Of a stretch of 59,801 nucleotides of DNA, positions 2,420 through 48,851 are shown piece by piece. Numbering within the stretch: position 1 is the stretch's first letter; each line of letters opens with the position of its first letter. The stretch is taken from the NCBI GenBank assembly GCA_035502055.1, contig DATJVB010000036.1, forward strand, positions 1-59,801. The letters are read 5' to 3'. The notes under the pieces were generated by a model that made no database searches, was not told the DNA's origin, and was given only the letters and a program-made list of their open reading frames with translations. The position numbers and the translations under genes were made by a program. The DNA comes from Thermoplasmata archaeon (GTDB lineage: Archaea; Thermoplasmatota; Thermoplasmata; Lutacidiplasmatales; UBA184).

Positions 2420-2420
2420 G

Positions 2421-3386: not shown

Positions 3387-3388
3387 CC

Positions 3389-12087: not shown

Positions 12088-12108
12088 GCCGGGGGGCCCT
12101 CCCGGGGG

Positions 12109-13498: not shown

Positions 13499-13509
13499 GC
13501 GATATACCC
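13499..13509 (+). promoter_or_regulatory. TATA-like box (GCGATATACCC) about 30 nt upstream of the ATG at 13534
   Basis: An isolated A/T box in a GC-rich divergent intergenic region. The spacing fits a leaderless archaeal transcript. Confidence 0.4.
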
Positions 13510-13533
13510 CGACCGGCGGGTCGGCGGACCGCC

Positions 13534-27544: not shown

Positions 27545-27623
27545 CGCCTCTTCCCGCCGTCTGAGCGGGGTGGTGTAACTTAAGACCCCACGTCAAGACC
27601 CACGCCGTGGGGACACGTCCGCC

Positions 27624-29003: not shown

Positions 29004-29028
29004 GCGGGGTCCCCCGGGGGTTCCGGCG

Positions 29029-30174: not shown

Positions 30175-30354
30175 AGCCTGCCGGCCCGACCGTCGAGGGG
30201 ACTGGCCTGTAGCGGCGGTTCGACCGGCGGTCGGAGACCCTCCTCCCCATCCTCGACCGGGGACCGACCGGGATCCCCGGTGGGCCGAACGAGGCCGGGC
30301 GAAGAGGGAGGGATCAGGGGGCGGAGTCCCCGCCGGGGCCCGACCGGCCCGCGG

Positions 30355-31761
30355 CTACGTCGGGGGCTTCTTCTGGGAGGGGAGCGGCGGAGGGACGTAC
30401 GTCCTGCCCGGGCCCGAGGAGGGATCGCCGCCGTGCCCCGCGCCGGTACCCGCGGCCGGCATCGGTCCGGGGATGAGGTTCTCCGGCGAGAAGGCGATCA
30501 GGAGCGCCCCCGCGTCCTCGCCCGTGTCGAACGGCGACGCGTACTCGGCCATCGGACGAGAGGCGTACATCGCGACCGTCATCCCCACGTTCGTCCCGAC
30601 GATGAGGAGGAGCGCGGGGAAGAACAGGATCGCGCTGTTCGGAATCGCGCGCAGGGAGACGATGAGGAGGACCGCCGAGGTGAGGCCCCGACCGTACATC
30701 GCGGCGAGGGGCGTCGCCCACGACTCCGGGAACGTCTTCGCGTCGGCGACCAGCCGGAACGCGCCGTACCGGACGAGGAGGAGCGCCACGACGACGAGCG
30801 CGATCGCCACGCCGGCCGCGAGGGACGGGAAGGCGAGCGTGACGAGGACCCCGATCATGACGAGGAAGAACGTCCGGAGCACGAAGGCGATCTCGACCTC
30901 GACGCGTCGCAGCTCGGCGGAGACCCGGAACGGGCGGGCCCGCCGGAGGAACCGGCGGACGATCACCTCGTTCCCGATCACGACGCCGAAGACGAGCGCC
31001 GCGACGATCCCCGACCCGCCGAGCCCCTGCGCGGCGGCGTACGCGACGAAGAGGAAGCCGAGGGTCGCGAGCGTCGCGAACGGACGGTCCTGCCAGCGGT
31101 ACAGGAACGGCAGCCACGCGAGCCCCGCGATCAGGCCGACCGCGATGCCGACCGGGAACGGGAGGATCAGCGCCGTCGTGACGTCGATCGCGAGGGCGCC
31201 GCCGACCGGGGTCACGAGGGCGAGGAGCGTCGTGACCATCACGATCGCGATGGCGTCCTCGAGGGCGGCGTCGAGCTGGAGGACCCCCCGGATGCCCCCC
31301 GGAAAGCCGAACCGCGCGGCGAGGGGGATGACGACCGCGCCGGACGTGCACCCGAGGGCCGCGCCGAACAGGATCGACAGGATCGGATGGCCCGGGAACA
31401 GCACGAGGGCGCCGACGAGGGAGAGGACGGCCGTGCTCGCGAAGTAGCAGAGCGCGGAGGAGAGGATCGCCGACCGGGCGAGCGGCCGGAGGAGGAAGAG
31501 ATCGAGGTCGATGCCGGCGTCGAAGAGGATGAGGACGAGCGCGGCCGTCCCGAGGACGGGAGCGAGCAGGAGGAGGTCGGACTCGGGGAGGAGCCCGAGG
31601 ACCGGTCCGGCGAGGATGCCGAGGGCGATGAGCCAGAGGACATCGGGGATCCGGAACCGGTTCGCGAGCCAGTCCGCCCCGAACCCGACGAGCAGGGTGA
31701 CGCCGAGGAGAAGGAGGAGGATCGAGGTGCTCCCGAGGGTGAAGAGCGTCACGGGCCCCAT
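30355..31761 (-). CDS. Cation:proton antiporter (Na+/H+ exchanger, CPA1/NhaP-like)
   Basis: 468 aa with about 12 TM helices. It has the N-terminal FRIPDVLWLIALGILAGP and an LFDAGIDLD motif, plus a soluble C-terminal tail. Confidence 0.85.
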   Translation of the reverse strand: MGPVTLFTLGSTSILLLLLGVTLLVGFGADWLANRFRIPDVLWLIALGILAGPVLGLLPESDLLLLAPVLGTAALVLILFDAGIDLDLFLLRPLARSAILSSALCYFASTAVLSLVGALVLFPGHPILSILFGAALGCTSGAVVIPLAARFGFPGGIRGVLQLDAALEDAIAIVMVTTLLALVTPVGGALAIDVTTALILPFPVGIAVGLIAGLAWLPFLYRWQDRPFATLATLGFLFVAYAAAQGLGGSGIVAALVFGVVIGNEVIVRRFLRRARPFRVSAELRRVEVEIAFVLRTFFLVMIGVLVTLAFPSLAAGVAIALVVVALLLVRYGAFRLVADAKTFPESWATPLAAMYGRGLTSAVLLIVSLRAIPNSAILFFPALLLIVGTNVGMTVAMYASRPMAEYASPFDTGEDAGALLIAFSPENLIPGPMPAAGTGAGHGGDPSSGPGRTYVPPPLPSQKKPPT

Positions 31762-32021
31762 CCCGCGCCGACCGCAAGGTCGCCCATGTCAGGCCCCCGT
31801 TCGCGCGATGGCCCTCCGGGGAGCCGTGTGGGGAGATAAACCGGTGGCCGCTCGAGACGATCCGGCCGGCGGCGTCACGGGTCGCGGGGGTTAGGCTCTA
31901 TCCCTCGCGCCGGGGCGTCCCGCCGGGGTCCCTTTCCCGGCGGGCCCGGGCCATCGCGAAGCGACCCTCCACGGTACCCGGCGAGCGGCGAGGGGCGGCG
32001 GCGACGGGCGTTGGACGTGCG

Positions 32022-32028
32022 TATATAT
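32022..32028 (+). promoter_or_regulatory. TATATAT box upstream of the processive GT2 gene
   Basis: An isolated perfect A/T heptamer about 105 nt upstream of the ATG at 32133. That ATG has a GGGGAGG Shine-Dalgarno-like element 5 nt upstream, implying a leadered mRNA. Confidence 0.35.
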
Positions 32029-32132
32029 GGGGTCTCGCCGCGTCGCGCCGGCACCGGCGGGCCGGGTTCGGGCCTCCCGAACGTCCGGGCGACTTCGACC
32101 GGGCCGCCGTCGGTCAGCAAGAGGGGAGGCGC

Positions 32133-34379
32133 ATGCTCGACGGACCGTGGGCCAGCTGGGTCGCGTGGCTCACCGTCTCGGTCGCGCTCACCTGGCTCGT
32201 GGCGGGGATCGTCCTCCTCGTCGTCGGATGGCTCTCGCTCCCGCGCCGGAAGGATCCGAACGCTCCGGCGGCCGGGTCCCGGGGCGGGGGGCGGGGCGTC
32301 CGGATCGCCGGCGGGATCGTCGCGGCCGTCGGCGCGGTGGCGGCCGCTTCGTACCTGCTGGCCCACGGGGCGCCGTGGGAATCCCAGCTTCTCGGGCTGC
32401 CGGTCGTCTCCGTCGGCGGAACCCTCCTCGGGGACCTGTGGGCGGGGTTCGGGTGGCTCGGGGCGGGACTCGCGACCTCCCCGTCCTGGCTTCCCCGGAT
32501 CGTCGGCCAGTTCTTCGCCGCCGTCGACGCGCGCGTCTCCTGGCTCGGCGGCGAGCTTCGCGGCGCGGTCGGGTGGATCACCGCCCGGGCCGACCCGGTC
32601 GTCGCCCCGGCATCGAACGCCGCGTGGGCGGGGATGCTCGGCCTCTTCTGGGGGACGTACGGGACCCTCAACCTGTTCGCCCTCGCGACCGCCGTCGCCG
32701 TCGGCGCGTTCGCCGGATGGATGAGCGGCTCGTCGCGGTGGAAGTTCTCCGGGATCGTCACGTACCTCGGCCTCGATCTGCTCGCCCTCGGCCTCATAGC
32801 ACTCTCGCTCCTCGTGGTCGAGACGTCCCGGAGTCTCTGGGTGGACGCGCTCGGCCTCTGGCTCGTCGGCGTCGAGCTGTTCGGCTTCCTCCTGTTCCTC
32901 GCGTACCAGTTCTACACCCTCGAGTACATCGCCGGCCAGGGACCGCGCCCGGACGCGGTCCCGGCGCCGATCGACGACCGGTGGACGCCGTTCGTCCTGG
33001 TCCAGGTGGCGTCGTTCAACGAGCCCGTCGAGATCGTCGCGCGCTGCCTCGCCTCGGTCGCGCGCCTCGATTACCCGCGCGACCGGTTCGCAGTCCAGCT
33101 CCTCGACGATTCGACGGACCGCGGGACCGTCGCCGAGCTCGAGGCGCTCTGTCAACGACTGGGGGTCGCGTTCCTCCACCGGACCCATCGGCGCGGCTTC
33201 AAGGGCGGGGCCCTCAACGACGGTCTCGCAGCGTTCCCCGGCCGCCCCGACCTCATCGCGATCGTCGACTCTGACTACGTCGTGACCCCGGCGTTCCTTC
33301 GCACCGCGGTCCCGCCGTTCCGCGCGCCGGCCGTCGGGTTCGTCCAGACCCCCCAGGCGTACCGGAACGCGCAGCGGAGCGCGTTCGCCCGCTGGTACGC
33401 GCTGGCGGACGCGTACTTCTACCGCGTCGTCCAGCCGGTGCGCGCGCGCGTCCAATCCCTCATCTTCTGCGGGACGATGGGACTCGTGCGACGGTCGGCC
33501 CTCCGGAGCGCCGGCGGATGGTCGGAGACGTGCGTCACGGAGGACGCGGAGCTCTCGCTCCGGCTGCTCGCCCTTGGTTGGAAGGGGGTCTACCTGCCCA
33601 CGACCGTCGGGTGGGGGCTCGCGCCGGATCTCATGAGCGCGGTCCGGTCCCAGCACCGCCGGTGGGCGTTCGGCGGGCTCCAGATGCTCCGCTCCGGCCG
33701 GACCGACCTGCGCCGGGCGCGCCTCACGCTCCGCCAGCGGATCGACTTCCGCATGGGGGGCCTCTTCTGGGTCGACGGCCTCTTCCTCCTCGGGGTGACG
33801 AGCGCCCTCGCGGCGCTCATGCTCGCGACGTGGTTCGGCGTCACCCTGCGGCTGAGCTCGATCGGGGCCCTCACGCTCCTCGCGCTCGCCCCGTTCCTCC
33901 TCATGCTCGACGGGATCGTGAAGCTCCGCGTCGCGCTCCGCACCACCACGCGCGTCTCGTATCGGGACGTCTTCGGAGTGATGGCGTTCTGGTACGCGAT
34001 CAAGCTCAACGACCTCCGCGCCGCCCTCCGGGGCTGGGCCGGCGCGCGCCTTCCGTTCGTGCGCACCCCGAAGACGTCCGGCCCGCGGCCCAGCCGGGCG
34101 AGCGCGCTCCGGGCGGCCGCGGCCGGCTCGCCGCTCGAGACGGTCCTCGCTTCCGCGATGACCGGCCTCACCGTCGCGACGGCTTACCGCTGGGGCCTCT
34201 TCGACGGCCGGTGGCCCTCGTTCGCGGGCGGCATCCTGCTCGGGTGGGGGGCCTACTACGCGGCCGCGTACTACTCGGCCCTCGGATTCGACTACTTCTC
34301 CCGCCGGACGACGCCCGCGGCGCCGCCTGCGCGCGCCCGAGCTCCGACAGGTCCCACGCCGGGCGCCGTGGGATCGTGA
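32133..34379 (+). CDS. Membrane-embedded processive family-2 glycosyltransferase (cellulose/chitin-synthase-like)
   Basis: 748 aa. An N-terminal multi-TM region precedes a GT-A core with LLDDSTD, IVDSDYV, VQTPQAY, TEDAELSLRL and the Q-x-x-R-W motif (QHRRW). Further TM helices follow. Confidence 0.85.
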   Translation: MLDGPWASWVAWLTVSVALTWLVAGIVLLVVGWLSLPRRKDPNAPAAGSRGGGRGVRIAGGIVAAVGAVAAASYLLAHGAPWESQLLGLPVVSVGGTLLGDLWAGFGWLGAGLATSPSWLPRIVGQFFAAVDARVSWLGGELRGAVGWITARADPVVAPASNAAWAGMLGLFWGTYGTLNLFALATAVAVGAFAGWMSGSSRWKFSGIVTYLGLDLLALGLIALSLLVVETSRSLWVDALGLWLVGVELFGFLLFLAYQFYTLEYIAGQGPRPDAVPAPIDDRWTPFVLVQVASFNEPVEIVARCLASVARLDYPRDRFAVQLLDDSTDRGTVAELEALCQRLGVAFLHRTHRRGFKGGALNDGLAAFPGRPDLIAIVDSDYVVTPAFLRTAVPPFRAPAVGFVQTPQAYRNAQRSAFARWYALADAYFYRVVQPVRARVQSLIFCGTMGLVRRSALRSAGGWSETCVTEDAELSLRLLALGWKGVYLPTTVGWGLAPDLMSAVRSQHRRWAFGGLQMLRSGRTDLRRARLTLRQRIDFRMGGLFWVDGLFLLGVTSALAALMLATWFGVTLRLSSIGALTLLALAPFLLMLDGIVKLRVALRTTTRVSYRDVFGVMAFWYAIKLNDLRAALRGWAGARLPFVRTPKTSGPRPSRASALRAAAAGSPLETVLASAMTGLTVATAYRWGLFDGRWPSFAGGILLGWGAYYAAAYYSALGFDYFSRRTTPAAPPARARAPTGPTPGAVGS

Positions 34380-37805: not shown

Positions 37806-37880
37806 TGCTCCCGGCGGGATTCGAACCCGCGTTGTCGGGTCGAAGGCCCGATATCCTTGACCGGACTAGACTACGGGAGC
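37806..37880 (-). tRNA. tRNA-Glu (anticodon UUC), 75 nt, no encoded CCA
   Basis: Hand-folded cloverleaf. Acceptor GCUCCCG pairs with CGGGAGC. The D arm is GUCU-AGUCCGGUCAA-GGAU. The anticodon arm is UCGGG-CCUUCGA-CCCGA. The T arm is GCGGG-UUCGAAU-CCCGC, with discriminator A. The sequence was cross-checked against the codons of track ORF 37799..38083. The anticodon loop has C, not U, at position 33. Confidence 0.8.
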
Positions 37881-39842: not shown

Positions 39843-40679
39843 ATGCCGCGGCGCCGGGGCACCATCCGGGTCATCGAGGGCGACGCCCGCCGGCTCGACG
39901 GCCTCGGGGAGGGATCGGTCCATCTCGTCGTCACCTCGCCCCCGTACCCGATGATCCCCGTCTGGGACGCGCTGTTCGCGTCGTGGGGGGCCCGGGGGTT
40001 CGAGGCGATGCACGCCGCCCTCGACGCGGCGTGGGCGGAGGCGGCCCGGGTCCTCGTCCCCGGCGGGCTCCTCGCGATCAACGTGGGCGACGCGCTGCGC
40101 CGGGTCGACGGCGAGTTCCGGCTCTGGCCGAACCAGGCCCGCGTCACCGCGGCGGCGACCCGGCTCGGACTGTCGCCGCTCCCGTACGTCCTGTGGCAGA
40201 AGCCGACGAACCGGCCGAACGCCTACCTCGGATCGGGGTTCCTCCCGCCGAACGCGTACGTCACCCTCGACTGCGAGTACGTCCTCCTCTTCCGGAAGGG
40301 GCCGCCCCGGCGGTACCCTCCCCACGACCCGGACCGGACCGCGAGCCGCTACTCGCGGGCGGACCGGGACGTCTGGTTCAGCCAGGTCTGGACCGGCGTG
40401 ACGGGGGCCCGGCAGGGCCCCGACGGGAACCGGACGAGCGCCTTCCCGGCCGAGCTCCCGCGCCGGCTCGTCCGGATGTTCTCGGTCGTCGGCGAGACGG
40501 TCCTGGACCCGTTCGCCGGCACCGGCACCACCCTGTTCGCCGCGGCCGAAGAGGGCCGGGAGGCGATCGGGGTCGAGCTCGACCCGGTCCGCGCCGAGGC
40601 GCTCAGCCGGCGGGCGGCGGCGTGGAACCGTTTGGCGGCCGCTCGCGCCCCGCGAGCTCCTCGTCGACGGCGCGCTTGA
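39843..40679 (+). CDS. DNA methyltransferase, beta-class N4-cytosine/N6-adenine type
   Basis: 278 aa. Motif IV TSPPY precedes motif I DPFAGTGTT, which is the beta-class order. The FPAELP region is also present. The SPPY form is more typical of N4-cytosine enzymes. Confidence 0.85.
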   Translation: MPRRRGTIRVIEGDARRLDGLGEGSVHLVVTSPPYPMIPVWDALFASWGARGFEAMHAALDAAWAEAARVLVPGGLLAINVGDALRRVDGEFRLWPNQARVTAAATRLGLSPLPYVLWQKPTNRPNAYLGSGFLPPNAYVTLDCEYVLLFRKGPPRRYPPHDPDRTASRYSRADRDVWFSQVWTGVTGARQGPDGNRTSAFPAELPRRLVRMFSVVGETVLDPFAGTGTTLFAAAEEGREAIGVELDPVRAEALSRRAAAWNRLAAARAPRAPRRRRA

Positions 40680-41148
40680 GATAGCCGAGGGCGTGGTCGC
40701 TCAGCCGGTCCATGTGCAGTAAGAGGTAGTGGAGGTACACCCGCTCGGGCCGGCGCGACGGGCCCGGCGGATGGCTCCGCACCCCCGGTCCGCCCGCCGT
40801 CCGCTCCGCCCCCGCTTCCAGCGTCGTCGGGTCGTGCTGGTGCTCCGGTCCGTGGAAGGCGCGTCCGGTGCCCCGCGTGAGCGGCGGGTACACCCGGTCG
40901 ACCGGATCGAGGGCCGCCGCTGGGTCCGCCGCGGCGCCCGCGGGTCCCATGCGCCCCGGGTTCGGACCCTTCGCCGAGACCGGCGGGAGGTGGCCGAGCT
41001 TGTGGGCGAGGTACGGGTGGACGGGCCGCGACGGGTCCTGGAAGTCGGTGATCGGCCGGCCGGCGACGCGCTCGACGATCGTGGTGAGGCTCCAGCTCTC
41101 CCGCCGGCGCGCCGGACCGTCGGCCGTCGACGAGTCCGCCCCCGCCAC
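40603..41148 (-). CDS. Hypothetical protein, last gene of the VirB4 operon
   Basis: GTG at 41148 lies in frame in track ORF 40603..42708, with strong GC3 bias. The sequence is VAGADSS..SWSLTTIVERVAGRPITDFQDPSRPVHPYLAHKLGHLPP...RVYLHYLLLHMDRLSDHALGYLKRAVDEEL. I recognise no domain. The opposite-strand ORF is Arg-rich junk. Confidence 0.4.
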   Translation of the reverse strand: MAGADSSTADGPARRRESWSLTTIVERVAGRPITDFQDPSRPVHPYLAHKLGHLPPVSAKGPNPGRMGPAGAAADPAAALDPVDRVYPPLTRGTGRAFHGPEHQHDPTTLEAGAERTAGGPGVRSHPPGPSRRPERVYLHYLLLHMDRLSDHALGYLKRAVDEELAGRERPPNGSTPPPAG

Positions 41149-41170
41149 GGGCGACCCTCGGCCGCGCCTC

Positions 41171-41177
41171 TGATAAA
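41171..41177 (-). promoter_or_regulatory. TTTATCA box 26 nt upstream of the GTG at 41148
   Basis: An isolated A/T heptamer in the 53-nt gap after the VirB4-like stop. The same TTTATC hexamer occurs upstream of the antiporter gene at 31835..31840. Confidence 0.3.
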
Positions 41178-41201
41178 CGTGCCGTTCGACGGGCACGCGC
41201 G

Positions 41202-42857
41202 CTACGCGGGCCCCGTCGGACGGACGAGGGTCCCCTCGAGCAGCTCGACCTCGGGGGTCGACGCGACGAACGCGAGCGGCAGGTGCGCCGGGCCGACGCG
41301 CAGGAGGCCCTCCGAGTAGCCGACGTCCCGGGCGACCCGGGCCCGCGGAACCCACTCCGCCTCGGCGTCGGTGAGCCGGAAGATCGCCCGGGCCGCGTCC
41401 GAGACGTGCGGGAGGCGCAGGAGGGTGACGTCGCCCAGGTTCCTGAGGAGCGCGCGACCCGGGTCGGTCGTCGCGAAGTCGTCCGGGTCCTGGCTCGCGA
41501 GGACGAGCCCGCCCGCGAAGTGCCGGACGTGGCGCACGAGCCGGTCGAGGAGCGAGAGCGCGGCCGGGTCCCGGGCCAAGAGGTGCGCCTCGTCGACGAG
41601 GACGAGCTTGGGACCGGGCCGGCGGGCGAGCCGGCCCGCGACGGCGTCGAGCAGGAAGGCGAGATGGTACGGCCGGTGCCCGTCGGCGACGTGGCGGAGA
41701 TCGATCGCGACGGGCCCCTCGGACCACCGGACGGTCGTCGGACCGTTGAGCCCGCGGAGCGATCCCGAGACCACGAGCTCGAGGAGGCCGGGGAGCGCGC
41801 CCGGACGGGCGTCGCGCGCGACGCGGTCCTGTAGGTCCGCGAACGTCGGCTCCGCGAGCTCCGCGTACGCCCGGGCGAGCGCCCGGTCGAGGGCGCCCAT
41901 CTCCTCGTCGTTCAGCGACGGGAACAGCGTCCGCAGCTCGAGCGCGGCGCGCGCCGCCTTCTCGGTCCGGTCCCCGAGCGTCGTCGCCGGGTCGAGCGGG
42001 TTGAGCCGGCCCCCGTCGGGGCTCCCGAGGGCGACCACGTCGCCGCCGATCGCGCGCACGAACGGCCCGAACTCGCCGAGCGGGTCGAGGACGACGAGGT
42101 CGAGGTCCGGGTATCGCCAGCGGCTCCGGAGCATCGTCACGGCGGCGAGGAACGACTTCCCCGACCCGGTCGCCCCGAAGATCGCCGACGAGTGGCTCGC
42201 CCGCGCGAACCGGTTGAGGAAGACGGGGGCGGCGTCGTCGAGCGACAGCCCGACGAGGATCCCGCCGGGCTCGGCGACCGCCTCCTCGATGAACGGGAAG
42301 AACGCGGCGACGCCGTCGGTGTGGAGGGTGTGCCAGAACCCCGCCGGCCGGTCCTCCGGGCCCGCGAGCGCCGGGCCGGCGAGGGCGGGGGTCGTCTCGA
42401 ACCGGGGCGGCCGGACGCCGAACCCGAGAGCCGCCGCCCGGCGGGCGACCGTCGACCGGAGCCGCTCCGCCGCCGCGCGCGTCGCGGCGCGCGCCGTGAG
42501 GACCCAGCCGACTCGGTAGAGCCCCTGCTCCCGCGCGGCGACCCGGTCCCCGAGCGCCGTGGCGCTCGCCCGTTCGACCTCGAGGGCGCTCGTCGATCCG
42601 GGGCCGCCGTCGTCCGGCGCGGCGAGCTCGACCGACGCGACCGAGCGGGCCCGTCCGAGCAGCTCGAGCGCCTGCGGACGCGCGATCGGATGCAGGTGCA
42701 TCCGCCACTCGGCCCGGGAGCCGCTCGGCAGGATCCGGCCGACGACCCCGAACGGCACCTCGCTCGGCAGCGAGGAGAGGAGGATCGGCGCCTCGATCCC
42801 CGAGGGGTCCGTCCGGGTGGTCGCGCCCTCGCGTCCCGGGCCGCGTCGCGCGCTCAT
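41202..42857 (-). CDS. VirB4/TrbE/CedB-like conjugation-type ATPase
   Basis: ATG at 42857 lies in frame in track ORF 41202..43199 (MSARRGPG..). Walker A is IFGATGSGKSFLAAV and Walker B is KLVLVDEAHLL. The VLASQDP region is present. The about 230-aa N-terminal domain is of the VirB4 type (FWHTLHTDGVAAFFPFIEE..GILVGLS). The start overlaps the upstream stop (ATGA). Confidence 0.8.
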   Translation of the reverse strand: MSARRGPGREGATTRTDPSGIEAPILLSSLPSEVPFGVVGRILPSGSRAEWRMHLHPIARPQALELLGRARSVASVELAAPDDGGPGSTSALEVERASATALGDRVAAREQGLYRVGWVLTARAATRAAAERLRSTVARRAAALGFGVRPPRFETTPALAGPALAGPEDRPAGFWHTLHTDGVAAFFPFIEEAVAEPGGILVGLSLDDAAPVFLNRFARASHSSAIFGATGSGKSFLAAVTMLRSRWRYPDLDLVVLDPLGEFGPFVRAIGGDVVALGSPDGGRLNPLDPATTLGDRTEKAARAALELRTLFPSLNDEEMGALDRALARAYAELAEPTFADLQDRVARDARPGALPGLLELVVSGSLRGLNGPTTVRWSEGPVAIDLRHVADGHRPYHLAFLLDAVAGRLARRPGPKLVLVDEAHLLARDPAALSLLDRLVRHVRHFAGGLVLASQDPDDFATTDPGRALLRNLGDVTLLRLPHVSDAARAIFRLTDAEAEWVPRARVARDVGYSEGLLRVGPAHLPLAFVASTPEVELLEGTLVRPTGPA

Positions 42858-43189
42858 ACGGCCGTCCGGCCGCGGACCCATCCGGCGATCGGGAGCCCCC
42901 CCAGGCCGAGGATCGGTCCGCCGAGGTGGAGCGCGCCGACGGCCGGCACGGCGAGCGCGACCCAGCCGAGGCCGTAGGCGGCGACGCCCACGGCGGTCCA
43001 TCGGGGGTCCCGCGGGAGCGCTCCGCGGTCCCGGGCGAGCCGCAGGACGATCGTCGCCCCCAGGAGCGCGGCGAGCGCCTCGGCGAGCCCGAGGAAGTAC
43101 GGGACCGCCGCGGCGACGAGCCCGCTCGCGAGCGCCGCGACGGCGATCGTTCCCGGACCGACGGGGCGGTCCCCTCCGCCGTCCGTCAT
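42854..43189 (-). CDS. Small polytopic membrane protein (3-4 TM), unknown; possible VirB3/CedA2-like role
   Basis: ATG at 43189 lies in frame in track ORF 42854..43939. The sequence is MTDGGGDRPVGPGTIAVAALASGLVAAAVPYFLGLAEALAALLGATIVLRL..AVGVAAYGLGWVALAVPAVGALHLGGPILGLGGLPIAGW. There are ATGA overlaps at both ends. Confidence 0.55.
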   Translation of the reverse strand: MTDGGGDRPVGPGTIAVAALASGLVAAAVPYFLGLAEALAALLGATIVLRLARDRGALPRDPRWTAVGVAAYGLGWVALAVPAVGALHLGGPILGLGGLPIAGWVRGRTAV

Positions 43190-43959
43190 GCGCGGCCACC
43201 CGACGGAAAGCCGGCCCGCTCGACGGCGGTCCGAAGGACGGGCCCCGCGAGCCGCGTCGCCGGCACGCCGAGCGTGGCGAGGCGTTCCTCGATCCCCCGC
43301 GCCCGGGACTCGAGCGGGTCGTCCGGCCCCCCCGACGGGCCCGACCAGATCGCGATCTCGATCCGCCGGCGCCGCCGCCGCTGGCAGAGGAGCCGGACGA
43401 GGGCGTCGTACCCCGCGCGTGCGGCCCGCTCGCCCTCCGAGACGGCCGGCCCGGCCGGCAGCCGGAACGCCCGGTCCGACCACGGCTCGCTCGTCACCCG
43501 TACGAAGATCGGCCCGTCGAGGCTCCGCAGGAGCTCGACGTACCCGTCGAACAGCGCCCGGGCATCGGGCGGCGGCAGGTAGGCGACGGGGATCCCGCCC
43601 GCGGCGATGACCACGAGGCGGTGGCCGTCCGGAAGACGGACGACGCGCTCGAGCGGCCGCGCCGGACCCCGCGCGCGGGGGCCCGGGCTCCGGCGTCGCC
43701 GGCGCACCTCGTACGCGACGCGGTCGAGGAGCCGTTCGTCGAGGGTCCGCCCGTCCGATTCGCGCGTCGTGAGGAGGAATCCGCCTCCGAGGAACGGCAG
43801 CCACGCGATCGGACCGACGGCGAGCGCGGCGAGGAGGCCCGCAGTTGCGACGGCGGCGAACCGGAGCGCCGCCCCGGCCGTCGGGAACGGACCGAACCGG
43901 GGTCGCCGCCCGACGGGCGCGGGCAGCGGGATCGCCCACGGACCCGGCGCTTCGCTCAC
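43186..43959 (-). CDS. Membrane-anchored protein (N-terminal TM hairpin plus about 180-aa cytoplasmic domain), unknown
   Basis: GTG at 43959 lies in frame in track ORF 43186..44649 and overlaps the VirB6-like stop (GTGA). The TM hairpin is ALRFAAVATAGLLAALAVGPIAWLPFLGGGFLL. The soluble part is ..VVIAAGGIPVAYLPPPDARALFDGYVELLRSLDGPIFVRVTSEPW... Confidence 0.55.
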   Translation of the reverse strand: MSEAPGPWAIPLPAPVGRRPRFGPFPTAGAALRFAAVATAGLLAALAVGPIAWLPFLGGGFLLTTRESDGRTLDERLLDRVAYEVRRRRRSPGPRARGPARPLERVVRLPDGHRLVVIAAGGIPVAYLPPPDARALFDGYVELLRSLDGPIFVRVTSEPWSDRAFRLPAGPAVSEGERAARAGYDALVRLLCQRRRRRRIEIAIWSGPSGGPDDPLESRARGIEERLATLGVPATRLAGPVLRTAVERAGFPSGGRA

Positions 43960-45083
43960 GGAGCCCCCGAGGGAGGCGGGCTGCTCCGGCCGAACCGCGG
44001 CATCGGCGCCGCCCGACGCTCGATCCGACGGCCGAGATGGCGGACCAGGTGGACCGCGCCCCGGCCGACGATCTCCGCGCCGACGAGGGGGATCGTCGCC
44101 GGGAAGCCGGCCCGCCCGCCGACCTCGCCGAGCCGGCCGGCGACGCGCGCGGCCGTCGAACCGGCGCCTCCGATGCGGGCGCCGGACCGGAGAAGACCGC
44201 CCGTCGCGGAGGACCCGGCGGCGAGTCCGCGCTGGATGCCGCCCACGAGCGCCGAGTGCGCCGACGGGTAGCCGACCCCGGTGAGGTGGCTCCCGGCGAG
44301 CGAGACGAGCGACGGGGCGCCGAGGGCGATGGTGAGGAAGCCGAGCAGCAGGAGGACGCTCGGCGCCCCGACGGCGAGCTTGAGGGGCACGACGATGACG
44401 CACGGGAGGAACGCCGCCTCCACGAGCCAGAGCCAGGCCCGCCGGGCGATCGGGGCGAACGTCGGGATCGGATAGAGGAGGGTGAACGCCGGCAGGAGGA
44501 CGAGGAGGACCGCGAGCAGGGCGTCCCGGAGCGCGACGGCGGCGGCGAGGAGGAGGACGACGGAGAAAAGGGCGAACGAGACGACGAACGCGAGGACCCC
44601 GTTGTCCCACGAGAAGCCGACGCCGCCGACCCCCGCGAGATCGACCCACTGCTGCCAGGCGACGCCGTCGAGCCCCTGGACCGTCGCGTACGTCGCGCCG
44701 GCGATCGATAGGATCCCGCCGGCGACGGGGACGGCGAGGTTCGCGAGGACGATCGAGACGACCAGCTTCGGGAGCGCGGCCTCGAACTGGACCGCCCGGG
44801 GACCGAAAGTCGACCGGGCGAGGTACAGGAGCGCGACGCCCGCCCCGACCACCACGATCGCGGGGTCGACGAGCCCGACGACGACCAGATCGCTCAGCCG
44901 GGCGGCCTCGGCGAGGAACCCCGACGCCGGTCCGAACGGCGGGAGCGAGGGATAGAGCGACCCGGTGGCGAGCTCGGGGACCAGGAGATGGTCGTACGTC
45001 GGGCCGATCACGGCCGCCAGGAGCGCCGTGAGCGTCGAGAACATCGCGAAGAGGAGCGCCTGGAGGAGGACGGTCGGGTCCAT
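43956..45083 (-). CDS. VirB6/TrbL/CedA-like polytopic membrane protein
   Basis: 375 aa with about 7 TM helices over the first 280 aa, then a Gly/Ala-rich soluble tail. Size, topology and position between the pilin-like and VirB4-like genes fit VirB6/CedA. There is no sequence-level proof. Confidence 0.55.
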   Translation of the reverse strand: MDPTVLLQALLFAMFSTLTALLAAVIGPTYDHLLVPELATGSLYPSLPPFGPASGFLAEAARLSDLVVVGLVDPAIVVVGAGVALLYLARSTFGPRAVQFEAALPKLVVSIVLANLAVPVAGGILSIAGATYATVQGLDGVAWQQWVDLAGVGGVGFSWDNGVLAFVVSFALFSVVLLLAAAVALRDALLAVLLVLLPAFTLLYPIPTFAPIARRAWLWLVEAAFLPCVIVVPLKLAVGAPSVLLLLGFLTIALGAPSLVSLAGSHLTGVGYPSAHSALVGGIQRGLAAGSSATGGLLRSGARIGGAGSTAARVAGRLGEVGGRAGFPATIPLVGAEIVGRGAVHLVRHLGRRIERRAAPMPRFGRSSPPPSGAP

Positions 45084-45093
45084 CGACCGCTCC

Positions 45094-45474
45094 TCAGGTG
45101 CCCGTCAGCACCCAGTGGGCGAGCCCCCAGACGAGGCCCGAGAGCGCGGCGACGAAGAGGAGCGTCCCGACGAGCGCGTCCCGGGCCCGGTCCCGGGCCT
45201 GGATCTTCTTCGTCAGGTCGTGCGAGAACCAGCTGAGGGCGACGCGCGCCCAGGCGATCGCCAGGAGTCCGCTCCCCGCGACGCCCAGCAGGGTCACGAT
45301 CCGGTTCACGGACGCGGTGAAGTTCTCGACCGGCGTCCCCGAGGCGCTCGCGCCGACCCCGGCCGCGTCCGCGGCGCCCGGAGGGCCCGACGGACGCCCC
45401 GGCGACGGGAGACCGGCGGGGACCAGGAGGACGGCGGCGAGGAGGATCGTGCCCGCCACGCCGGCCGGCCTCAT
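45094..45474 (-). CDS. VirB2/TrbC-like pilin candidate (CedA1/TedC-like)
   Basis: ATG at 45474 lies in frame in track ORF 45094..46317 and overlaps the upstream stop (ATGA). The protein is 126 aa. A signal peptide (MRPAGVAGTILLAAVLLVPAGL) is followed by two hydrophobic helices (IVTLLGVAGSGLLAIAWARVALSWF and ALVGTLLFVAALSGLVWGLAHWVL). A basic loop (SHDLTKKIQARDRARD) separates them. Confidence 0.55.
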   Translation of the reverse strand: MRPAGVAGTILLAAVLLVPAGLPSPGRPSGPPGAADAAGVGASASGTPVENFTASVNRIVTLLGVAGSGLLAIAWARVALSWFSHDLTKKIQARDRARDALVGTLLFVAALSGLVWGLAHWVLTGT

Positions 45475-47078
45475 GCGGCCTCCGGGGGGCGGGCGGCCGC
45501 CTCCCTTGGGGTCGGGACGATCGCGAGCTTCTCCGACTCCCCGGAGCCGACGACCCGGATCCGGCCGCGCGCGAGGCCGGTCTCGATCGCGCGCTGGGCG
45601 GAGTCGACGTCGACGCCGGCCTCCTGCGCGAGGTACTCGAGGTCCTCCCGTCCCACGGGCCCGTCCTCGGCGAGGATCCGCTCGACCGTCGACTCCGGGC
45701 CGGGAGGCGGCATCGACAGGGCCGGCGGCCCGGGGCGTCGGGGGAGGAACCGGACCGCGACCGCGCCGGCACCGGCCCCGATCGCGAACGCGGCGACCGC
45801 CCACACCATCGCGTCGTCGCCGGCAGGCGCCCCGCCGCCGCCCGTCGGCGAGGGGACGGATCGGGCGGGCAGCTCGATCGTGGAGGCGGCGGACGCGGAC
45901 CGGCCCGCGGCGTCGGTGGCGACGACCGTCGCGGTGAGGTAGCCTCCCGCGTCGGGATTGGCCGTCCAGTCGACGGCGCCGGGCCCGGAACGGTTCCCGT
46001 GCGTCGCCTCCCCGTCGGACAGGGCGATCGCGTAGGCGTACGGCGCGAACCCTCCCGACAGGACGACGGAGACCGAGACGCTCCCGTTCGCCGCGGCGGG
46101 GAGCGTGTCGAACGCGAGCCCGACGCCGACGGCCGGGACGACCTCGACCGAGACGTTCGCCGACCGCTCGACGCCGATCGCGTCGGCGACGGTCGCGACG
46201 AGCGTGAAGTTCCCCGCGGTCGGGAACGTCCCCGCCCAGGCGATCGGGCCGGGCCCGGCTTCGGTGCCGTTGGGCGGTGTCGTCGCCTCGACCGGGCCGT
46301 CGACGCCGAACGACCACCGGATCGGCGGCGCCCCGCCGACGGCGAGGAGGTCGAGCGCGACCGGCGCGGCGACCTCGGTCTCGACCGCTGCTTCAGGGGC
46401 GATGAGGTCGAGCGCGGCGCCGACGGTCGCGACGTCCGCGGTCGCGCTGGCCGCGCCGCCGACCGAGTCGGTCACCGTCGCCGCGACCCACAACGGCCCG
46501 GACCCGTTCGCGGCGACGGGTTCCGTGAGCGACCCCGCCTTCGGCACGCTCGCGGTCCCGCCGTCGTCGCCGCCGGAGACGGTCCAGGTTAGCGAGTACG
46601 GCGCGACCCCGCCCGTGATCGCGAACGTCGCGGGGACCGGAACGCCGACGTCCGTCGCGTCGTCCCCCGCGGCGATGGAGAGCGCGGGAGACGGGACCGT
46701 CGTCACCGTGCAGTTCGCCGTCGCGTAGTCGGAGGCGCCGTCGCCGGCGGCGAGGGAGATCGTCACGGAGGCGTTCGGGGAGAGCGTGACCGTCCAGTTG
46801 GCCGACCGGCCGACGCCGAGCCCGTCGCCCGTCCACAGGTAGGTGAACGGCGGCAGCCCGCCGATCGGATCGGCCGACAGGACGAACGGAACGAACGGGT
46901 CGGCCGACGGTCCGGGTCCCGCGATCGTGACCGCGAACCCGTCGGCGGGACGGACCGCCGTCCGGACCGAGGCGGATCCGGGGCCGGAGTCGAGCGGCGT
47001 CGCTGCGACCGCGGGCGACGCCGCGACCAGGCCGGCGGCGAGCAGAAGAGCGACCGTCGCCGCGCACGGACCCCGCAT
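45471..47078 (-). CDS. Surface protein with 4-5 Ig-like repeats, a single TM, and a cytoplasmic wHTH-like C-terminal domain
   Basis: ATG at 47078 lies in frame in track ORF 45471..47795, with GGGAGGG 5 nt upstream. The signal peptide is MRGPCAATVALLLAAGLVAASPAVA. Repeats carry GG.PP(Y/F).Y.W motifs. The TM is MVWAVAAFAIGAGAGAVAV. The tail is STVERILAEDGPVGREDLEYLAQEAGVDVDSAQRAIETGLARGRIRVV. Confidence 0.7.
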   Translation of the reverse strand: MRGPCAATVALLLAAGLVAASPAVAATPLDSGPGSASVRTAVRPADGFAVTIAGPGPSADPFVPFVLSADPIGGLPPFTYLWTGDGLGVGRSANWTVTLSPNASVTISLAAGDGASDYATANCTVTTVPSPALSIAAGDDATDVGVPVPATFAITGGVAPYSLTWTVSGGDDGGTASVPKAGSLTEPVAANGSGPLWVAATVTDSVGGAASATADVATVGAALDLIAPEAAVETEVAAPVALDLLAVGGAPPIRWSFGVDGPVEATTPPNGTEAGPGPIAWAGTFPTAGNFTLVATVADAIGVERSANVSVEVVPAVGVGLAFDTLPAAANGSVSVSVVLSGGFAPYAYAIALSDGEATHGNRSGPGAVDWTANPDAGGYLTATVVATDAAGRSASAASTIELPARSVPSPTGGGGAPAGDDAMVWAVAAFAIGAGAGAVAVRFLPRRPGPPALSMPPPGPESTVERILAEDGPVGREDLEYLAQEAGVDVDSAQRAIETGLARGRIRVVGSGESEKLAIVPTPREAAARPPEAA

Positions 47079-48380: not shown

Positions 48381-48851
48381 ATGAGCGGGTTCCTGCGCCG
48401 GCTTAGGCGTCGCCCGGCCAAGGAGGAGCCGGAGGCGGAGGAGGAGCCCGAGGAGGTCCCCGAGCCGCCGGCGTTCGTCCCGTTCCCCGAGGACCGGCGG
48501 GCGCCGCCCGAGGAGCCCGAGTACCCTCCCCCCCTCGAGGTGGAATCGCCCCCCGAGGCGAACCCCCCCGCGACCTCCGAGGCCGCCCCCGCGGCCGATC
48601 TCGCTCCCGAGCCGCTCCCCGACGCGCCGACGGCCGAGCCCCCGCCGACGGCCCCGTCCCGTCCCGAGGCGCCCCCGCCGGTCGCCGCGGCCGAACCGCC
48701 GCCGCTCGGGCCGCCGCCGTTGCCGCCCACCGACCTCGACTCCGTCCGCGCGGCGACGCCGGCCCGGTCCGGGTCGACGCGGTGCTTCATCTGCGGCACC
48801 GAGCTCGTGGGGACGTACTGTCCCACGTGCCGGATGGCGTGGAACGAGTAG
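48381..48851 (+). CDS. Pro/Glu/Ala-rich disordered protein ending in a CxxC..CxxC zinc ribbon
   Basis: 156 aa with a basic N-terminus (MSGFLRRLRRRPAK). About 110 aa of P/E/A low complexity follow, then CFICGTELVGTYCPTCRMAWNE. Confidence 0.5.
   Translation: MSGFLRRLRRRPAKEEPEAEEEPEEVPEPPAFVPFPEDRRAPPEEPEYPPPLEVESPPEANPPATSEAAPAADLAPEPLPDAPTAEPPPTAPSRPEAPPPVAAAEPPPLGPPPLPPTDLDSVRAATPARSGSTRCFICGTELVGTYCPTCRMAWNE

What the first reader, a model, noticed from the sequence alone, without database searches (positions are those of the whole stretch)
45094..45474. 126-aa protein with the VirB2/TrbC conjugative-pilin architecture
The protein has a signal peptide (MRPAGVAGTILLAAVLLVPAGL) and a Gly/Ala/Pro linker. 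Two hydrophobic helices are joined by a strongly basic loop (SHDLTKKIQARDRARD). This helix-loop-helix hairpin with a basic loop is the defining layout of VirB2/TrbC/TraA pilins and of the archaeal CedA1/TedC subunits. The gene sits immediately 5' of the VirB6-like gene, as in many T4SS operons.
Basis: inference. Interest (0 to 1): 0.7.

Follow-up and report, generated by a model that had tools for sequence, protein, structure and literature searches.

The report
Conjugative-type pilin gene in Thermoplasmata archaeon
This small archaeal membrane protein belongs to the pilin family of DNA-transfer (type IV secretion) machines and sits in a chromosomal operon kept in at least 143 Thermoplasmata species, which suggests a third "domesticated" conjugation-like apparatus in archaea.

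Summary
The ORF is real but lies on the minus strand (45474->45094, 126 aa). It is translationally coupled to both neighbouring genes.

AlphaFold2 predicts an N-terminal hydrophobic leader, a disordered linker, and a two-helix hairpin (helices 48-91 and 96-124).

The window protein has no direct Pfam, NCBIfam or PDB hit. Its subfamily profile matches a divergent branch at hhalign probability 99.5% (E 1e-22). Members of that branch score above threshold on Pfam PF18895 (T4SS_pilin), and 17 of 35 close homologues hit PF18895 below threshold.

The gene is the second of a seven-gene operon:
- Ig-repeat surface protein
- pilin
- polytopic protein whose top five PDB fold hits are all VirB6
- VirB3/PrgI-like protein
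- small membrane protein
- VirB4-like ATPase
- unknown

Synteny is fixed next to fibrillarin: 67 of 67 assessable loci upstream and 54 of 54 downstream. No relaxase, coupling protein or integrase was seen.

Relatives occur in a true conjugative element and in chromosomes of cultured Ferroplasma.

Pilus assembly and DNA exchange remain inferred. I rate it a new variant of a known kind (Ced/Ted-like domestication, outside Thermoproteota).

The parts
45094..45474 (-). G2: 126-aa precursor of a T4SS_pilin-superfamily (VirB2-class) helical-hairpin protein
   Evidence: Translation, coding frame by GC3, AF2 hairpin, profile link to PF18895-positive relatives.
45415..45474 (-). Residues 1-20: Sec-type signal-peptide-like leader (R2, then a hydrophobic core). 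The sequence is variable among homologues.
   Evidence: Hydropathy segment 2-26. AF2 helix 5-20. All 136 family members of 100-170 aa have an N-terminal hydrophobic core, and 115 have a net-positive n-region. Divergent homologues show AxA-like sites such as AFA|HG and VYA|ES. Cleavage was not predicted with a dedicated tool.
45316..45324 (-). N51-F-T53 N-glycosylation sequon at the start of helix 1
   Evidence: N51 is invariant in A1. An N-x-S/T sequon lies within 40 aa upstream of the invariant Trp in 136 of 138 members: 24 aa upstream in 123, 27-28 aa in 12 and 21 aa in 1.
45202..45333 (-). Helix 1 (residues 48-91), including hydrophobic span 58-83
   Evidence: AF2, pLDDT 86-89 in this block; hydropathy.
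45178..45225 (-). Charged connector, residues 84-99 (SHDLTKKIQARDRARD), with the turn at 92-95
   Evidence: AF2 turn at 92-95. Net charge +2. Invariant residues D86, K89, K90, Q92, R96, R98 and D99.
45103..45189 (-). Helix 2 (residues 96-124); the protein ends ...LTGT with G125 invariant
   Evidence: AF2. G125 is invariant even in the mixed alignment A3.
45471..47078 (-). G1: 535-aa surface protein with a signal peptide, Ig/PKD-like repeats, a C-terminal TM helix and a cytoplasmic tail. Candidate adhesin or recognition subunit.
   Evidence: Big_9 and SprB repeats. The same architecture heads the distant cluster in L009. It is the most variable gene of the operon, median 27% identity.
43956..45083 (-). 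G3: 375-aa polytopic membrane protein, VirB6-like candidate
   Evidence: AF2 all-helical model, pLDDT 73. The Foldseek PDB top five are all TrwI/VirB6 of R388, best E 0.38, probability 0.72. There is no Pfam hit. It is present in 80 of 80 related loci.
43186..43959 (-). G4: 257-aa protein with a VirB3/PrgI-like N-terminal membrane segment plus a cytoplasmic domain
   Evidence: NCBIfam SCO6880_fam, 5e-4, on residues 32-91. PrgI hit in 4 of 32 homologues, best 0.0099. In Ferroplasma the corresponding N-terminus is fused to the VirB4-like ATPase.
42854..43189 (-). G5: 111-aa small membrane protein of unknown role, fast-evolving
   Evidence: Coding frame. An ORF of 80-170 aa occupies this position in 52 of the 54 loci in which a G4 homologue could be delimited. 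tblastn at 1e-5 finds no similarity. It is absent from the L094 and Ferroplasma clusters.
41202..42857 (-). G6: 551-aa VirB4-like ATPase, lacking most of the canonical VirB4 N-terminal domain
   Evidence: NCBIfam CD1110 family 2.7e-33, aligning residues 90-528 to model positions 286-734 of 752. Mbov_0397 family 1.2e-26, VirB4_CagE 2.2e-19, CedB only 0.12. Pfam DUF87 and AAA_10.
40603..41196 (-). G7: 197-aa conserved protein of unknown function, last gene of the operon
   Evidence: Coding frame. Found in 61 related loci, median 54% identity. No family hit.
39843..40679 (+). Convergent N4/N6 DNA methyltransferase overlapping G7 by 77 bp. Its link to the system is uncertain.
   Evidence: N6_N4_Mtase in the equivalent genes. 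Conserved in 58 loci. Unrelated DNA methyltransferases also flank the L009 and Ferroplasma clusters.

Best explanation
G2 is a divergent member of the T4SS_pilin (VirB2-class) superfamily. It is the small hairpin subunit of a minimal, chromosomally fixed type IV secretion-like apparatus in a high-GC Thermoplasmata archaeon.

Shown here:
- The gene is real and translationally coupled.
- The protein has a variable hydrophobic leader and linker, followed by a very conserved domain of about 79 aa predicted to be a two-helix hairpin.
- That domain is homologous to proteins that pass the Pfam T4SS_pilin threshold.
- The gene is always found with a polytopic VirB6-like candidate, a VirB3/PrgI-like protein and a VirB4-like ATPase.

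Inferred steps:
1. The precursor is inserted by Sec and the leader is removed.
2. The hairpin sits in the membrane with both ends outside and the charged connector in the cytoplasm.
3. Asn51 is N-glycosylated on the outer face.
4. The VirB4-like ATPase, anchored by G4, extracts subunits at the G3 platform and stacks them, probably with lipids, into a pilus or short conduit. The termini and glycan face outward and the charged connector lines the lumen.
5. The variable Ig-repeat protein G1 provides cell-cell recognition.

The operon lies at a fixed chromosomal site and no relaxase, coupling protein or integrase was seen. The apparatus is therefore most likely a domesticated conjugation machine used for exchange or uptake of cellular DNA between cells, like Ced and Ted. 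This functional step is the least certain.
For: Gene reality: frame-specific GC3, ATGA overlap and an SD-like GGAGG.

Fold: helices 48-91 and 96-124 with a turn at 92-95, block pLDDT 82-89.

Homology:
- Exhaustive profile search finds only 33 clusters, all small hairpin proteins or hairpin C-termini apart from one low-complexity false hit.
- PF18895 is the top hit in 9 of 10 divergent members and above the gathering score in 5.
- A1 versus A2 hhalign: probability 99.5%, E 1.1e-22 over the whole hairpin.
- PF18895 is the commonest family among close homologues, 17 of 35.
- Weak recurrent hits to other VirB2-type families: CagC, TrbC and DUF2976.

Context:
- VirB4-like G6.
- G3 fold hits are all VirB6.
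- G4 resembles PrgI/SCO6880, and its counterpart is fused to VirB4 in Ferroplasma.
- Synteny holds in 54 of 54 and 67 of 67 assessable loci, including megabase contigs and a complete chromosome.

Conjugation link: a family member lies next to a T4CP (TrwB_AAD_bind 1.5e-36), a weak relaxase hit and an integrase in L093.

Outer-face sequon: conserved in 136 of 138 members.
Against: - The window protein has no direct hit in Pfam, NCBIfam, PHROGs or PDB sequences.
- Foldseek with the G2 model finds no pilin.
- hhalign against single T-pilin and F-pilin sequences finds nothing.
- The G3-VirB6 fold matches are not significant (E 0.38), and the precomputed TrbL_3 tags were not reproduced.
- The connector is about 16 residues, longer than the loops of VirB2 or TraA, and only net +2.
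- No PF18895-family protein has been shown to form a pilus.
- The mature domain is more conserved (median 69%) than fibrillarin (64%), which is unusual for an exposed filament subunit.
- Some relatives carry N-terminal domains of 200 aa or more, and the Ferroplasma form has no leader.
- No VirB5, VirB1, VirB8, VirD4 or relaxase was seen here.
Confidence: 0.72

Rival explanations
1. Same family and same apparatus, but no extended pilus. G2 stays in the membrane as a structural or channel-lining subunit of a VirB4/VirB6-type translocon. This would resemble VirB2 homologues that are required in T4SSs with no visible pili, or wall-less minimal systems such as mycoplasma ICEs.
For: - The mature domain is very strongly conserved.
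- Cultured Thermoplasmatales such as Thermoplasma and Ferroplasma are wall-less (own knowledge), so contact may not need a long pilus.
- G6's best matches are monoderm and mycoplasma VirB4 families, and those classes generally lack pilins (PMC12102498; PMC12857230).
- Some paralogues have bulky N-terminal domains that are hard to pack in a filament.
Against: - The closest archaeal analogues with the same gene set, CedA1 and TedC, were once thought to be membrane proteins but do form pili (PMC9905601).
- The conserved external sequon and cleavable-looking leader fit an exported, surface-exposed subunit.
Confidence: 0.2
2. The apparatus is real, but it is not used for DNA exchange. It could secrete proteins, mediate adhesion or recognition, or exchange material with partner cells, as proposed for the Patescibacteria T4SS with its pilin arrays.
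For: - No relaxase or coupling protein was seen in the operon or in the window genes scanned.
- A large variable Ig-repeat surface protein heads the operon.
- Pilin paralogue arrays in L009 resemble the Patescibacteria arrays (PMC12857230).
Against: - Ced and Ted also lack relaxase and T4CP, yet Ced imports DNA (PMC9905601).
- Family members occur in a genuine conjugative element.
- DNA methyltransferases of three different families flank three independent clusters.
Confidence: 0.3
3. G2 is an unrelated small membrane protein (for example a VirB3-like anchor, a holin-like protein or a type IV pilin with a class III signal peptide), and the pilin-like layout is coincidental.
For: - Two-TM hairpins are common and low in information.
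- The window protein has no direct HMM hit.
- Foldseek is uninformative.
Against: - The profile-profile link to PF18895-positive proteins has E 1e-22.
- The VirB3/PrgI signal belongs to G4, not G2.
- The N-terminal hydrophobic segment is the least conserved part, the opposite of type IV pilins, and no conserved class III cleavage motif is present.
- The link with VirB4 holds in every context examined.
Confidence: 0.04

Closest known systems
Pfam PF18895 T4SS_pilin (VirB2-like pilins used as a VirB2 profile for Patescibacteria T4SSs; PMC12102498)
   Same: - Hairpin domain of about 70 aa after a leader.
- Encoded next to VirB4, VirB6 and VirB3-like genes of the monoderm type.
- Divergent relatives of G2 pass the model's threshold, and G2's subfamily is homologous to them.
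- Paralogue arrays exist in related archaeal clusters.
   Different: - The window protein does not reach the model.
- The host is an archaeon.
- There is a single copy in a fixed chromosomal operon.
- It has a longer charged connector and a conserved N-glycosylation sequon.
TedC pilin of the Ted system (Pyrobaculum calidifontis; PMC9905601)
   Same: - Archaeal and chromosomal ('domesticated').
- Signal-peptide-bearing precursor with a disordered stretch before the hairpin.
- The gene sits immediately upstream of a polytopic VirB6/CedA-like gene, with a VirB4-like ATPase nearby and no relaxase.
   Different: - No detectable sequence similarity was found.
- The phylum differs: Thermoplasmatota MAGs of about 68-76% GC in the loci examined, versus hyperthermophilic Thermoproteales.
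- The partner ATPase is closest to bacterial monoderm VirB4 families.
- No HerA, Rad50 or ParA neighbours were seen.
CedA1 pilin of the Ced DNA-import system (Sulfolobales, Aeropyrum)
   Same: Small two-helix membrane protein encoded with CedA (polytopic) and CedB (VirB4-like) on the chromosome. The Ferroplasma relative, like CedA1, has no leader.
   Different: - G6 scores only 0.12 against the NCBIfam CedB model.
- G2 shows no profile similarity to the N-terminus of G3, whereas CedA1 resembles the CedA N-terminus (PMC9905601).
- The window protein has a leader.
TrbC/VirB2 (PF04956) and F-type TraA conjugative pilins
   Same: - Leader plus two hydrophobic helices joined by a charged connector.
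- Mature size about 70-80 aa.
- Gene order is pilin before VirB3/VirB4/VirB6-type genes.
- The C-terminus ends ...LTG(T), against ...LTGGG in VirB2.
   Different: - No HMM or hhalign similarity was found.
- The connector is much longer.
- There is no outer membrane, no VirB5/7/9/10, and no evidence for cyclisation.
'Type IV secretion components' cluster noted in Cuniculiplasma genomes (arCOG05340 membrane protein, arCOG04034 VirB4, arCOG05369 multipass protein, plus a Thermoplasmatales-only membrane protein; PMC5155288)
   Same: By its description this is probably the same kind of chromosomal cluster in cultured Thermoplasmatales: a VirB4 plus multipass and small membrane proteins.
   Different: That paper only listed the genes and made no pilin assignment. 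I could not fetch the Cuniculiplasma locus to confirm orthology. A separate VirD4-family ATPase is reported there, and none was seen in this window.
Minimal T4SS of mycoplasma ICEs (wall-less bacteria)
   Same: The cells are wall-less and the gene set is reduced to VirB4, a VirB6-like protein and VirB3-like proteins, with no VirB1 or VirB8. G6's second-best NCBIfam match is the Mbov_0397 ICE ATPase family.
   Different: Those systems are on mobile ICEs with T4CP and relaxase functions, and no pilin is described for them.

Membership tests
Pfam PF18895 T4SS_pilin | Match to the family HMM at or above the gathering score (26.6 bits) | tested here: not met
   The window protein has 0 Pfam hits at E<=10. 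17 of 35 close homologues hit below threshold, best E 0.0014. Five divergent relatives score 28.0-33.9 bits.
Pfam PF18895 T4SS_pilin | Homology to bona fide family members at profile level | tested here: met
   hhalign A1 versus A2: probability 99.5%, E 1.1e-22, 74 columns spanning both helices. The A1 profile finds P0139, P0140, P0144 and P0151 at library-wide E values from 4.6e-11 to 3.4e-5.
Pfam PF18895 T4SS_pilin | Encoded with a VirB4-type ATPase | tested here: met
   54 of 54 assessable loci, plus L007, L009, L094 and Ferroplasma. L093 carries a T4CP-type ATPase instead.
VirB2-class conjugative pilins (structural class: VirB2, TraA, CedA1, TedC) | Antiparallel hairpin of two hydrophobic helices in a mature protein of about 70-80 aa | tested here: met
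   AF2 model: helices 48-91 and 96-124, turn at 92-95; hydropathy. This is a prediction only, and Foldseek gave no pilin match.
VirB2-class conjugative pilins (structural class: VirB2, TraA, CedA1, TedC) | Polymerises with stoichiometric lipid into a hollow pilus whose lumen is lined by the connector | not testable with these tools
   Needs cryo-EM of filaments or at least multimer modelling.
VirB2-class conjugative pilins (structural class: VirB2, TraA, CedA1, TedC) | Cleavable Sec signal peptide (true of VirB2, TraA and TedC, not CedA1) | tested here: inconclusive
   A hydrophobic leader with a positive n-region is present and variable. Divergent homologues have AxA-type sites. No SignalP-type predictor was available, and the window protein's own c-region (VPAGL) is not canonical.
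TrbC/VirB2 Pfam PF04956 | HMM match or profile similarity to VirB2 | tested here: not met
   No hit for G2. Only P0137 scores, at 0.056. hhalign against mature T-pilin gives probability below 1%.
Ced system (CedA1) | Partner ATPase orthologous to CedB, and pilin similar to the N-terminus of CedA | tested here: not met
   CedB model E 0.12 against CD1110 2.7e-33. G2 versus G3 profile comparison gives probability 1%.
Ced/Ted-type domesticated T4SS (functional class) | Chromosomal, vertically inherited locus with pilin, polytopic protein and VirB4-like ATPase, and without relaxase, T4CP or integrase | tested here: met
   Fixed synteny between fibrillarin and the MTase/OMP-decarboxylase genes in 67 of 67 and 54 of 54 loci, on contigs up to 2.18 Mb. 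No such genes were seen in the operon or in the 20 other window genes scanned. The rest of the genome was not examined.
Ced/Ted-type domesticated T4SS (functional class) | Mediates import or exchange of cellular DNA | not testable with these tools
   Needs genetics in a cultured carrier.
Archaeal type IV pilins (class III signal peptide) | Conserved N-terminal hydrophobic helix preceded by a PibD/FlaK cleavage motif | tested here: not met
   The N-terminus is the least conserved region and has no shared cleavage motif. Conservation starts at residue 48.
VirB3 / PrgI | Small 1-2 TM protein directly upstream of VirB4 and matching VirB3/PrgI/TraL profiles | tested here: not met
   G2 has no such hits. 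The PrgI and SCO6880 signal lies in G4, whose counterpart is fused to VirB4 in Ferroplasma.

The most novel reading that the evidence does not exclude
This operon is a third, independently domesticated archaeal conjugation machine, after Ced in Sulfolobales and Desulfurococcales and Ted in Thermoproteales. It derives from a monoderm-type (MPF-FATA-like) T4SS and is core-genomic across Thermoplasmata, from high-GC UBA184-type MAGs to cultured Ferroplasma. It builds an N-glycosylated VirB2-class pilus used for chromosomal DNA exchange between wall-less cells, with the hypervariable Ig-repeat protein setting mating specificity.
Probability: 0.35. Interest if true: 0.8.

Novelty: new variant of a known kind. 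Interest (0 to 1): 0.6.

Why it matters
Domesticated conjugation machines that move cellular DNA are so far documented only in hyperthermophilic Thermoproteota (Ced, Ted). A December 2025 T4SS review lists no euryarchaeal pilin, only VirB4 and VirD4 on Thermococcus plasmid pT33-3.

This locus would extend the principle in two ways:
- to Thermoplasmatota, where a relative was found in 143 species-representative genomes, all but one labelled Thermoplasmata or Thermoplasmatales archaeon;
- to a machine whose ATPase is closest to the T4SSs of monoderm and wall-less bacteria.

Relatives are present in cultivated Ferroplasma, and a similar cluster is reported in Cuniculiplasma. Whether these archaea make conjugative-type pili and exchange DNA therefore becomes directly testable. 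The family also links the poorly characterised Pfam T4SS_pilin group, whose pilus formation is still hypothetical even in Patescibacteria, to tractable organisms.

Tried and rejected
1. Plus-strand reading of the given coordinates: unrelated translation. The overlapping plus-strand ORF 45098..45937 shares the GC3 phase but has the wrong GC1/GC2 order.
2. Direct family scans of G2 against Pfam, NCBIfam and PHROGs: nothing.
3. PDB sequence searches with G2, A1 and A2: only chance hits.
4. Foldseek of the G2 model against PDB: one meaningless hit. Simple hairpins with a disordered N-terminus are poorly handled, so this is uninformative rather than negative.
5. hhalign of A1, A2 and a merged alignment against single mature VirB2 and F TraA sequences: no signal. 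The VirB2 sequence was verified against 8cue and 8exh. Even VirB2 itself finds no other pilin in the PDB by sequence.
6. Test of a CedA1/CedA-like relationship between G2 and the N-terminus of G3: probability 1%.
7. Precomputed 'TrbL_3 (weak)' tags on G3 homologues: not reproduced by hmmscan on 32 members, so not used as evidence.
8. A genome scan with the mixed alignment A3 failed for lack of a conserved stretch and was repeated with A1.
9. The supplement of PMC9905601 was read to obtain CedA1 and TedC sequences for profile tests, but the text was illegible.
10. Type IV pilin (class III signal) and VirB3 readings of G2 were considered and rejected; see the membership table.
11. P0134, a 634-aa repeat protein, is a low-complexity false hit.
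Full report
**1. Observation**

The plus-strand translation of those coordinates is unrelated.

- The ATG (45474-45472) overlaps the TGA of the upstream gene (ATGA). It is preceded by GGAGG at 45483-45479.
- The next gene starts 11 nt after the stop codon and has its own GGAG.
- In this roughly 76% GC stretch, third-position GC is 0.92-0.98 in exactly this frame. The order GC1 > GC2 identifies the minus strand rather than the overlapping plus-strand ORF.
- A hydropathy scan gives three hydrophobic segments: 2-26, 58-83 and 97-122.
- The connector SHDLTKKIQARDRARD has 5 K/R and 3 D/E, net +2. It is highly charged, but 'strongly basic' overstates it.

The gene is real. It has 747 homologues at E<=0.01, and the exact sequence is annotated as a hypothetical protein in a Thermoplasmata archaeon MAG. 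The neighbouring fibrillarin gene confirms an archaeal host.

**2. Anatomy of the protein**

Homologues share almost nothing in the first 45 or so residues except a hydrophobic leader. From residue 48 onwards they are 60-85% identical, with 33 invariant columns.

AlphaFold2, using a 35-sequence alignment, predicts the following:
- a leader helix at 5-20;
- a disordered linker at 21-47;
- helix 48-91, a turn at 92-95, and helix 96-124;
- block pLDDT of 82-89 in most of the two helices, dipping to 60-72 around the connector; mean pLDDT 72; pTM 0.35 because of the disordered N-terminus.

Two further features stand out. An N-x-S/T sequon (N51-F-T) lies within 40 aa upstream of the invariant Trp in 136 of 138 family members: 24 residues upstream in 123 of them, 27-28 in 12 and 21 in one. 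Gly125, next to the C-terminus, is invariant even among distant members.

**3. Homology**

The window protein has no hit in Pfam, NCBIfam, PHROGs or PDB sequences. Foldseek with its model is uninformative.

An exhaustive profile search of 1.8 billion cluster representatives finds only 33 clusters. Apart from one low-complexity false hit, all are small hairpin proteins or larger proteins with the hairpin at the C-terminus.

Evidence linking the family to T4SS_pilin:
- In 9 of 10 divergent members tested, the top Pfam family is PF18895 'Type IV secretion system pilin'.
- Five of those exceed the gathering score (28.0-33.9 bits against 26.6). Weak extra hits go to CagC, TrbC and DUF2976.
- The window's own subfamily profile aligns to these members over the whole hairpin with hhalign probability 99.5% and E 1.1e-22.
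- Among 35 close homologues, PF18895 is the commonest family (17 members, best E 0.0014), all below threshold.
- PF18895 is one of the profiles used in the literature to call VirB2-like pilins (PMC12102498).

No similarity to mature T-pilin or F-pilin is detectable. That is also true among the experimentally solved conjugative pilins themselves (PMC9905601).

**4. Context in the window**

GC3 phasing and start-codon analysis define seven translationally coupled minus-strand genes (independently called in the ENA copy).

- **G1** (47078-45471) is a signal-peptide-bearing protein with Ig/PKD-like repeats, a C-terminal TM helix and a cytoplasmic tail.
- **G2** is the pilin candidate.
- **G3** (45083-43956) is a polytopic protein. 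Its AF2 model (pLDDT 73) has as its five best PDB matches only TrwI/VirB6 chains of the R388 T4SS. The scores are not significant (best E 0.38, probability 0.72, TM 0.28-0.37).
- **G4** (43959-43186) has an N-terminal membrane segment. It hits NCBIfam SCO6880_fam (5e-4), and in 4 of 32 homologues it hits PrgI, the monoderm VirB3 family.
- **G5** (43189-42854) is a small, fast-evolving membrane protein.
- **G6** (42857-41202) is a VirB4-like ATPase. It is closest to the CD1110 (2.7e-33) and mycoplasma Mbov_0397 (1.2e-26) families, and far from CedB (0.12). It lacks most of the canonical N-terminal domain.
- **G7** (41196-40603) is conserved but unassigned.

A DNA methyltransferase converges on G7. 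No relaxase, coupling protein or integrase was found in the operon or in 20 other window genes scanned. The only tRNA, at 37806-37880, does not flank the cluster.

**5. Comparative context**

One scan of species-representative genomes found 143 genomes with a relative. Of the 80 loci retrieved, 79 are labelled Thermoplasmata or Thermoplasmatales archaeon and one 'bacterium'. They include UBA184, UBA61 and a complete 2.18-Mb chromosome.

- In the 80 loci retrieved, G3 and G6 lie downstream in 54 of 54 assessable cases.
- Fibrillarin lies upstream on the same strand in 67 of 67 assessable cases.
- Median identities to the window proteins: G2 69%, fibrillarin 64%, methyltransferase 66%, G7 54%, G6 53%, G3 50%, G4 38%, G1 27%.

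The operon is therefore a vertically inherited chromosomal locus. Its pilin is the most conserved component and its surface protein the most variable.

More distant family members show the same core in other settings.

- A Thermoplasmataceae MAG has a minimal cluster (pilin, 353 aa, 250 aa, VirB4) between housekeeping genes.
- Ferroplasma, a cultured genus, has a leaderless 85-aa pilin homologue on contigs up to 1.9 Mb. It is followed by a 307-aa polytopic protein and a 680-aa ATPase. The first ~70 residues of that ATPase align to the G4-like proteins, and the rest aligns to VirB4. This supports G4 as the VirB3-like partner.
- L009 and L010 carry four paralogous hairpin genes behind a G1-like protein. 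One passes PF18895, and three have β-rich N-terminal domains with Gly/Trp-rich linkers.
- L093 places a family member beside a coupling protein (TrwB_AAD_bind 1.5e-36), a weak relaxase hit and an integrase. That is a genuine conjugative element.
- L007 adds a second, T4CP-like ATPase.

**6. Mechanism**

What is shown: a VirB2-class, T4SS_pilin-superfamily hairpin protein that is obligatorily linked to VirB4-like, VirB3-like and VirB6-like candidate proteins.

What is inferred:
1. Sec insertion and removal of the leader.
2. A topology with both termini outside and the connector inside, consistent with the positive-inside rule and the conserved external sequon.
3. N-glycosylation of Asn51.
4. 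ATPase-driven extraction at the G3 platform and assembly into a pilus or short conduit, with the charged connector lining the lumen, as in the T-, F-, Ced and Ted pili (PMC9905601).
5. G1 acting as the recognition or adhesion module.

The locus is chromosomally fixed and no relaxase or T4CP was seen. This parallels Ced and Ted, so the most likely role is exchange or uptake of cellular DNA.

DNA methyltransferases of three unrelated families flank three independent clusters: N6_N4 in this window, C5 in L009 and D12 in Ferroplasma. I treat this as a weak hint in the same direction.

The main rivals are a non-piliated membrane role for G2 and a non-DNA function for the apparatus.

**7. Comparison and novelty**

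G2 works like VirB2, TedC and CedA1. By sequence it belongs to the PF18895 superfamily only through intermediates. It is not a member of TrbC/VirB2 (PF04956) or of the Ced family: those membership tests were run and not met.

The system resembles Ted most closely: a leader-bearing pilin directly upstream of the polytopic gene, on the chromosome. Its ATPase, however, points to an independent origin from monoderm-type T4SSs.

Prior literature in the searchable library does not describe it.
- A 2016 Cuniculiplasma genome paper lists a VirB4 gene plus membrane proteins as 'type IV secretion components', with no pilin assignment.
- The 2023 Ced/Ted paper has no match for 'Thermoplasmat'.
- The archaeal-systems section of the 2025 T4SS review and a word search of the Patescibacteria T4SS paper show no mention of Thermoplasmata.
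- Further searches with Thermoplasmatota and PF18895 terms found nothing relevant.

I therefore rate it a new variant of a known kind. Interest is about 0.6: it is not categorically new, but it extends domesticated conjugation-type pili to a second archaeal phylum and to cultivable hosts.

Noticed in passing
window 45316-45324 (N51-F-T53) and family-wide: An N-glycosylation sequon lies within 40 aa upstream of the invariant Trp in 136 of 138 family members (24 aa upstream in 123), including low-GC distant members. This suggests a glycan on the outer face of the mature protein.
   Followed up: partly
window 45471-47078 (G1); L009:6215-8446: The first gene of the operon is a surface protein with Ig-like repeats, a C-terminal TM helix and a short cytoplasmic tail that may be winged-helix-like. 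The only support for the winged-helix idea is weak DUF5817_CT and EAP30 hits in one homologue. The same architecture heads a distant low-GC cluster. It is by far the most variable gene (median 27% identity, against 69% for the pilin), as expected for a specificity determinant.
   Followed up: partly
window 39843-40679 (+); L009:19190-20410; L095:6342-7115: DNA methyltransferases of three unrelated families (N6_N4, C5 and D12) lie next to three independent versions of the cluster. In the window the MTase converges on G7 and overlaps it by 77 bp. This could be coincidence or a link to DNA handling.
   Followed up: no
window 43186-43959 (G4) and 41202-42857 (G6); L095:9162-11204: The VirB4-like ATPase lacks most of the canonical N-terminal domain. 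In Ferroplasma a single 680-aa protein combines a G4-like N-terminus with the ATPase. This suggests a split VirB3-VirB4 arrangement in the window, with an extra small membrane gene (G5) inserted between the two parts.
   Followed up: partly
L009:8451-12203 (also L010): Four tandem paralogous hairpin genes of 177, 339, 326 and 406 aa. Three carry β-rich N-terminal domains of about 200-330 aa joined to the hairpin by Gly/Trp-rich linkers (GGGSWWGGGG...). This pilin array resembles the arrays described in Patescibacteria.
   Followed up: partly
window 641-4840 (+): Genes of a type IV pilus or archaellum-type assembly system: a T2SSE ATPase (3.8e-33) followed by two T2SSF/TadC-like membrane proteins. 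They lie about 40 kb from the T4SS-like operon. In Sulfolobales the Ced system works together with Ups type IV pili.
   Followed up: no
window 26567-34379: A cluster of glycosyltransferases (GT2, GT4 and a 748-aa cellulose-synthase-like GT2), interrupted at 30355-31761 by a Na+/H+ exchanger gene. There is also a phosphoesterase at 22729-24108. These may make surface glycans or exopolysaccharide.
   Followed up: no
window 8698-9609 (-), 16143-18566 (+): Further PKD-domain surface proteins. One of 807 aa has two PKD_4 repeats and a PQQ-like β-propeller segment.
   Followed up: no
window 7620-8648 (-): A protein combining an N-terminal MazE/AbrB-type antitoxin-like domain with a PhoU domain.
   Followed up: no
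window 48381-48851 (+): A 156-aa Pro/Glu-rich protein ending in a CxxC...CxxC zinc-ribbon-like motif (CFICGTELVGTYCPTC). It is conserved in position between DUF885 and the YjgF-fibrillarin pair in related genomes.
   Followed up: no
L093:2214-2831, 10001-14058: A pilin-family member (P0139) lies in an apparent integrated or plasmid conjugative element, with an integrase, a 2183-aa surface protein, a coupling protein and a weak relaxase-like hit. It may resemble the mobile ancestor of the chromosomal operon.
   Followed up: partly
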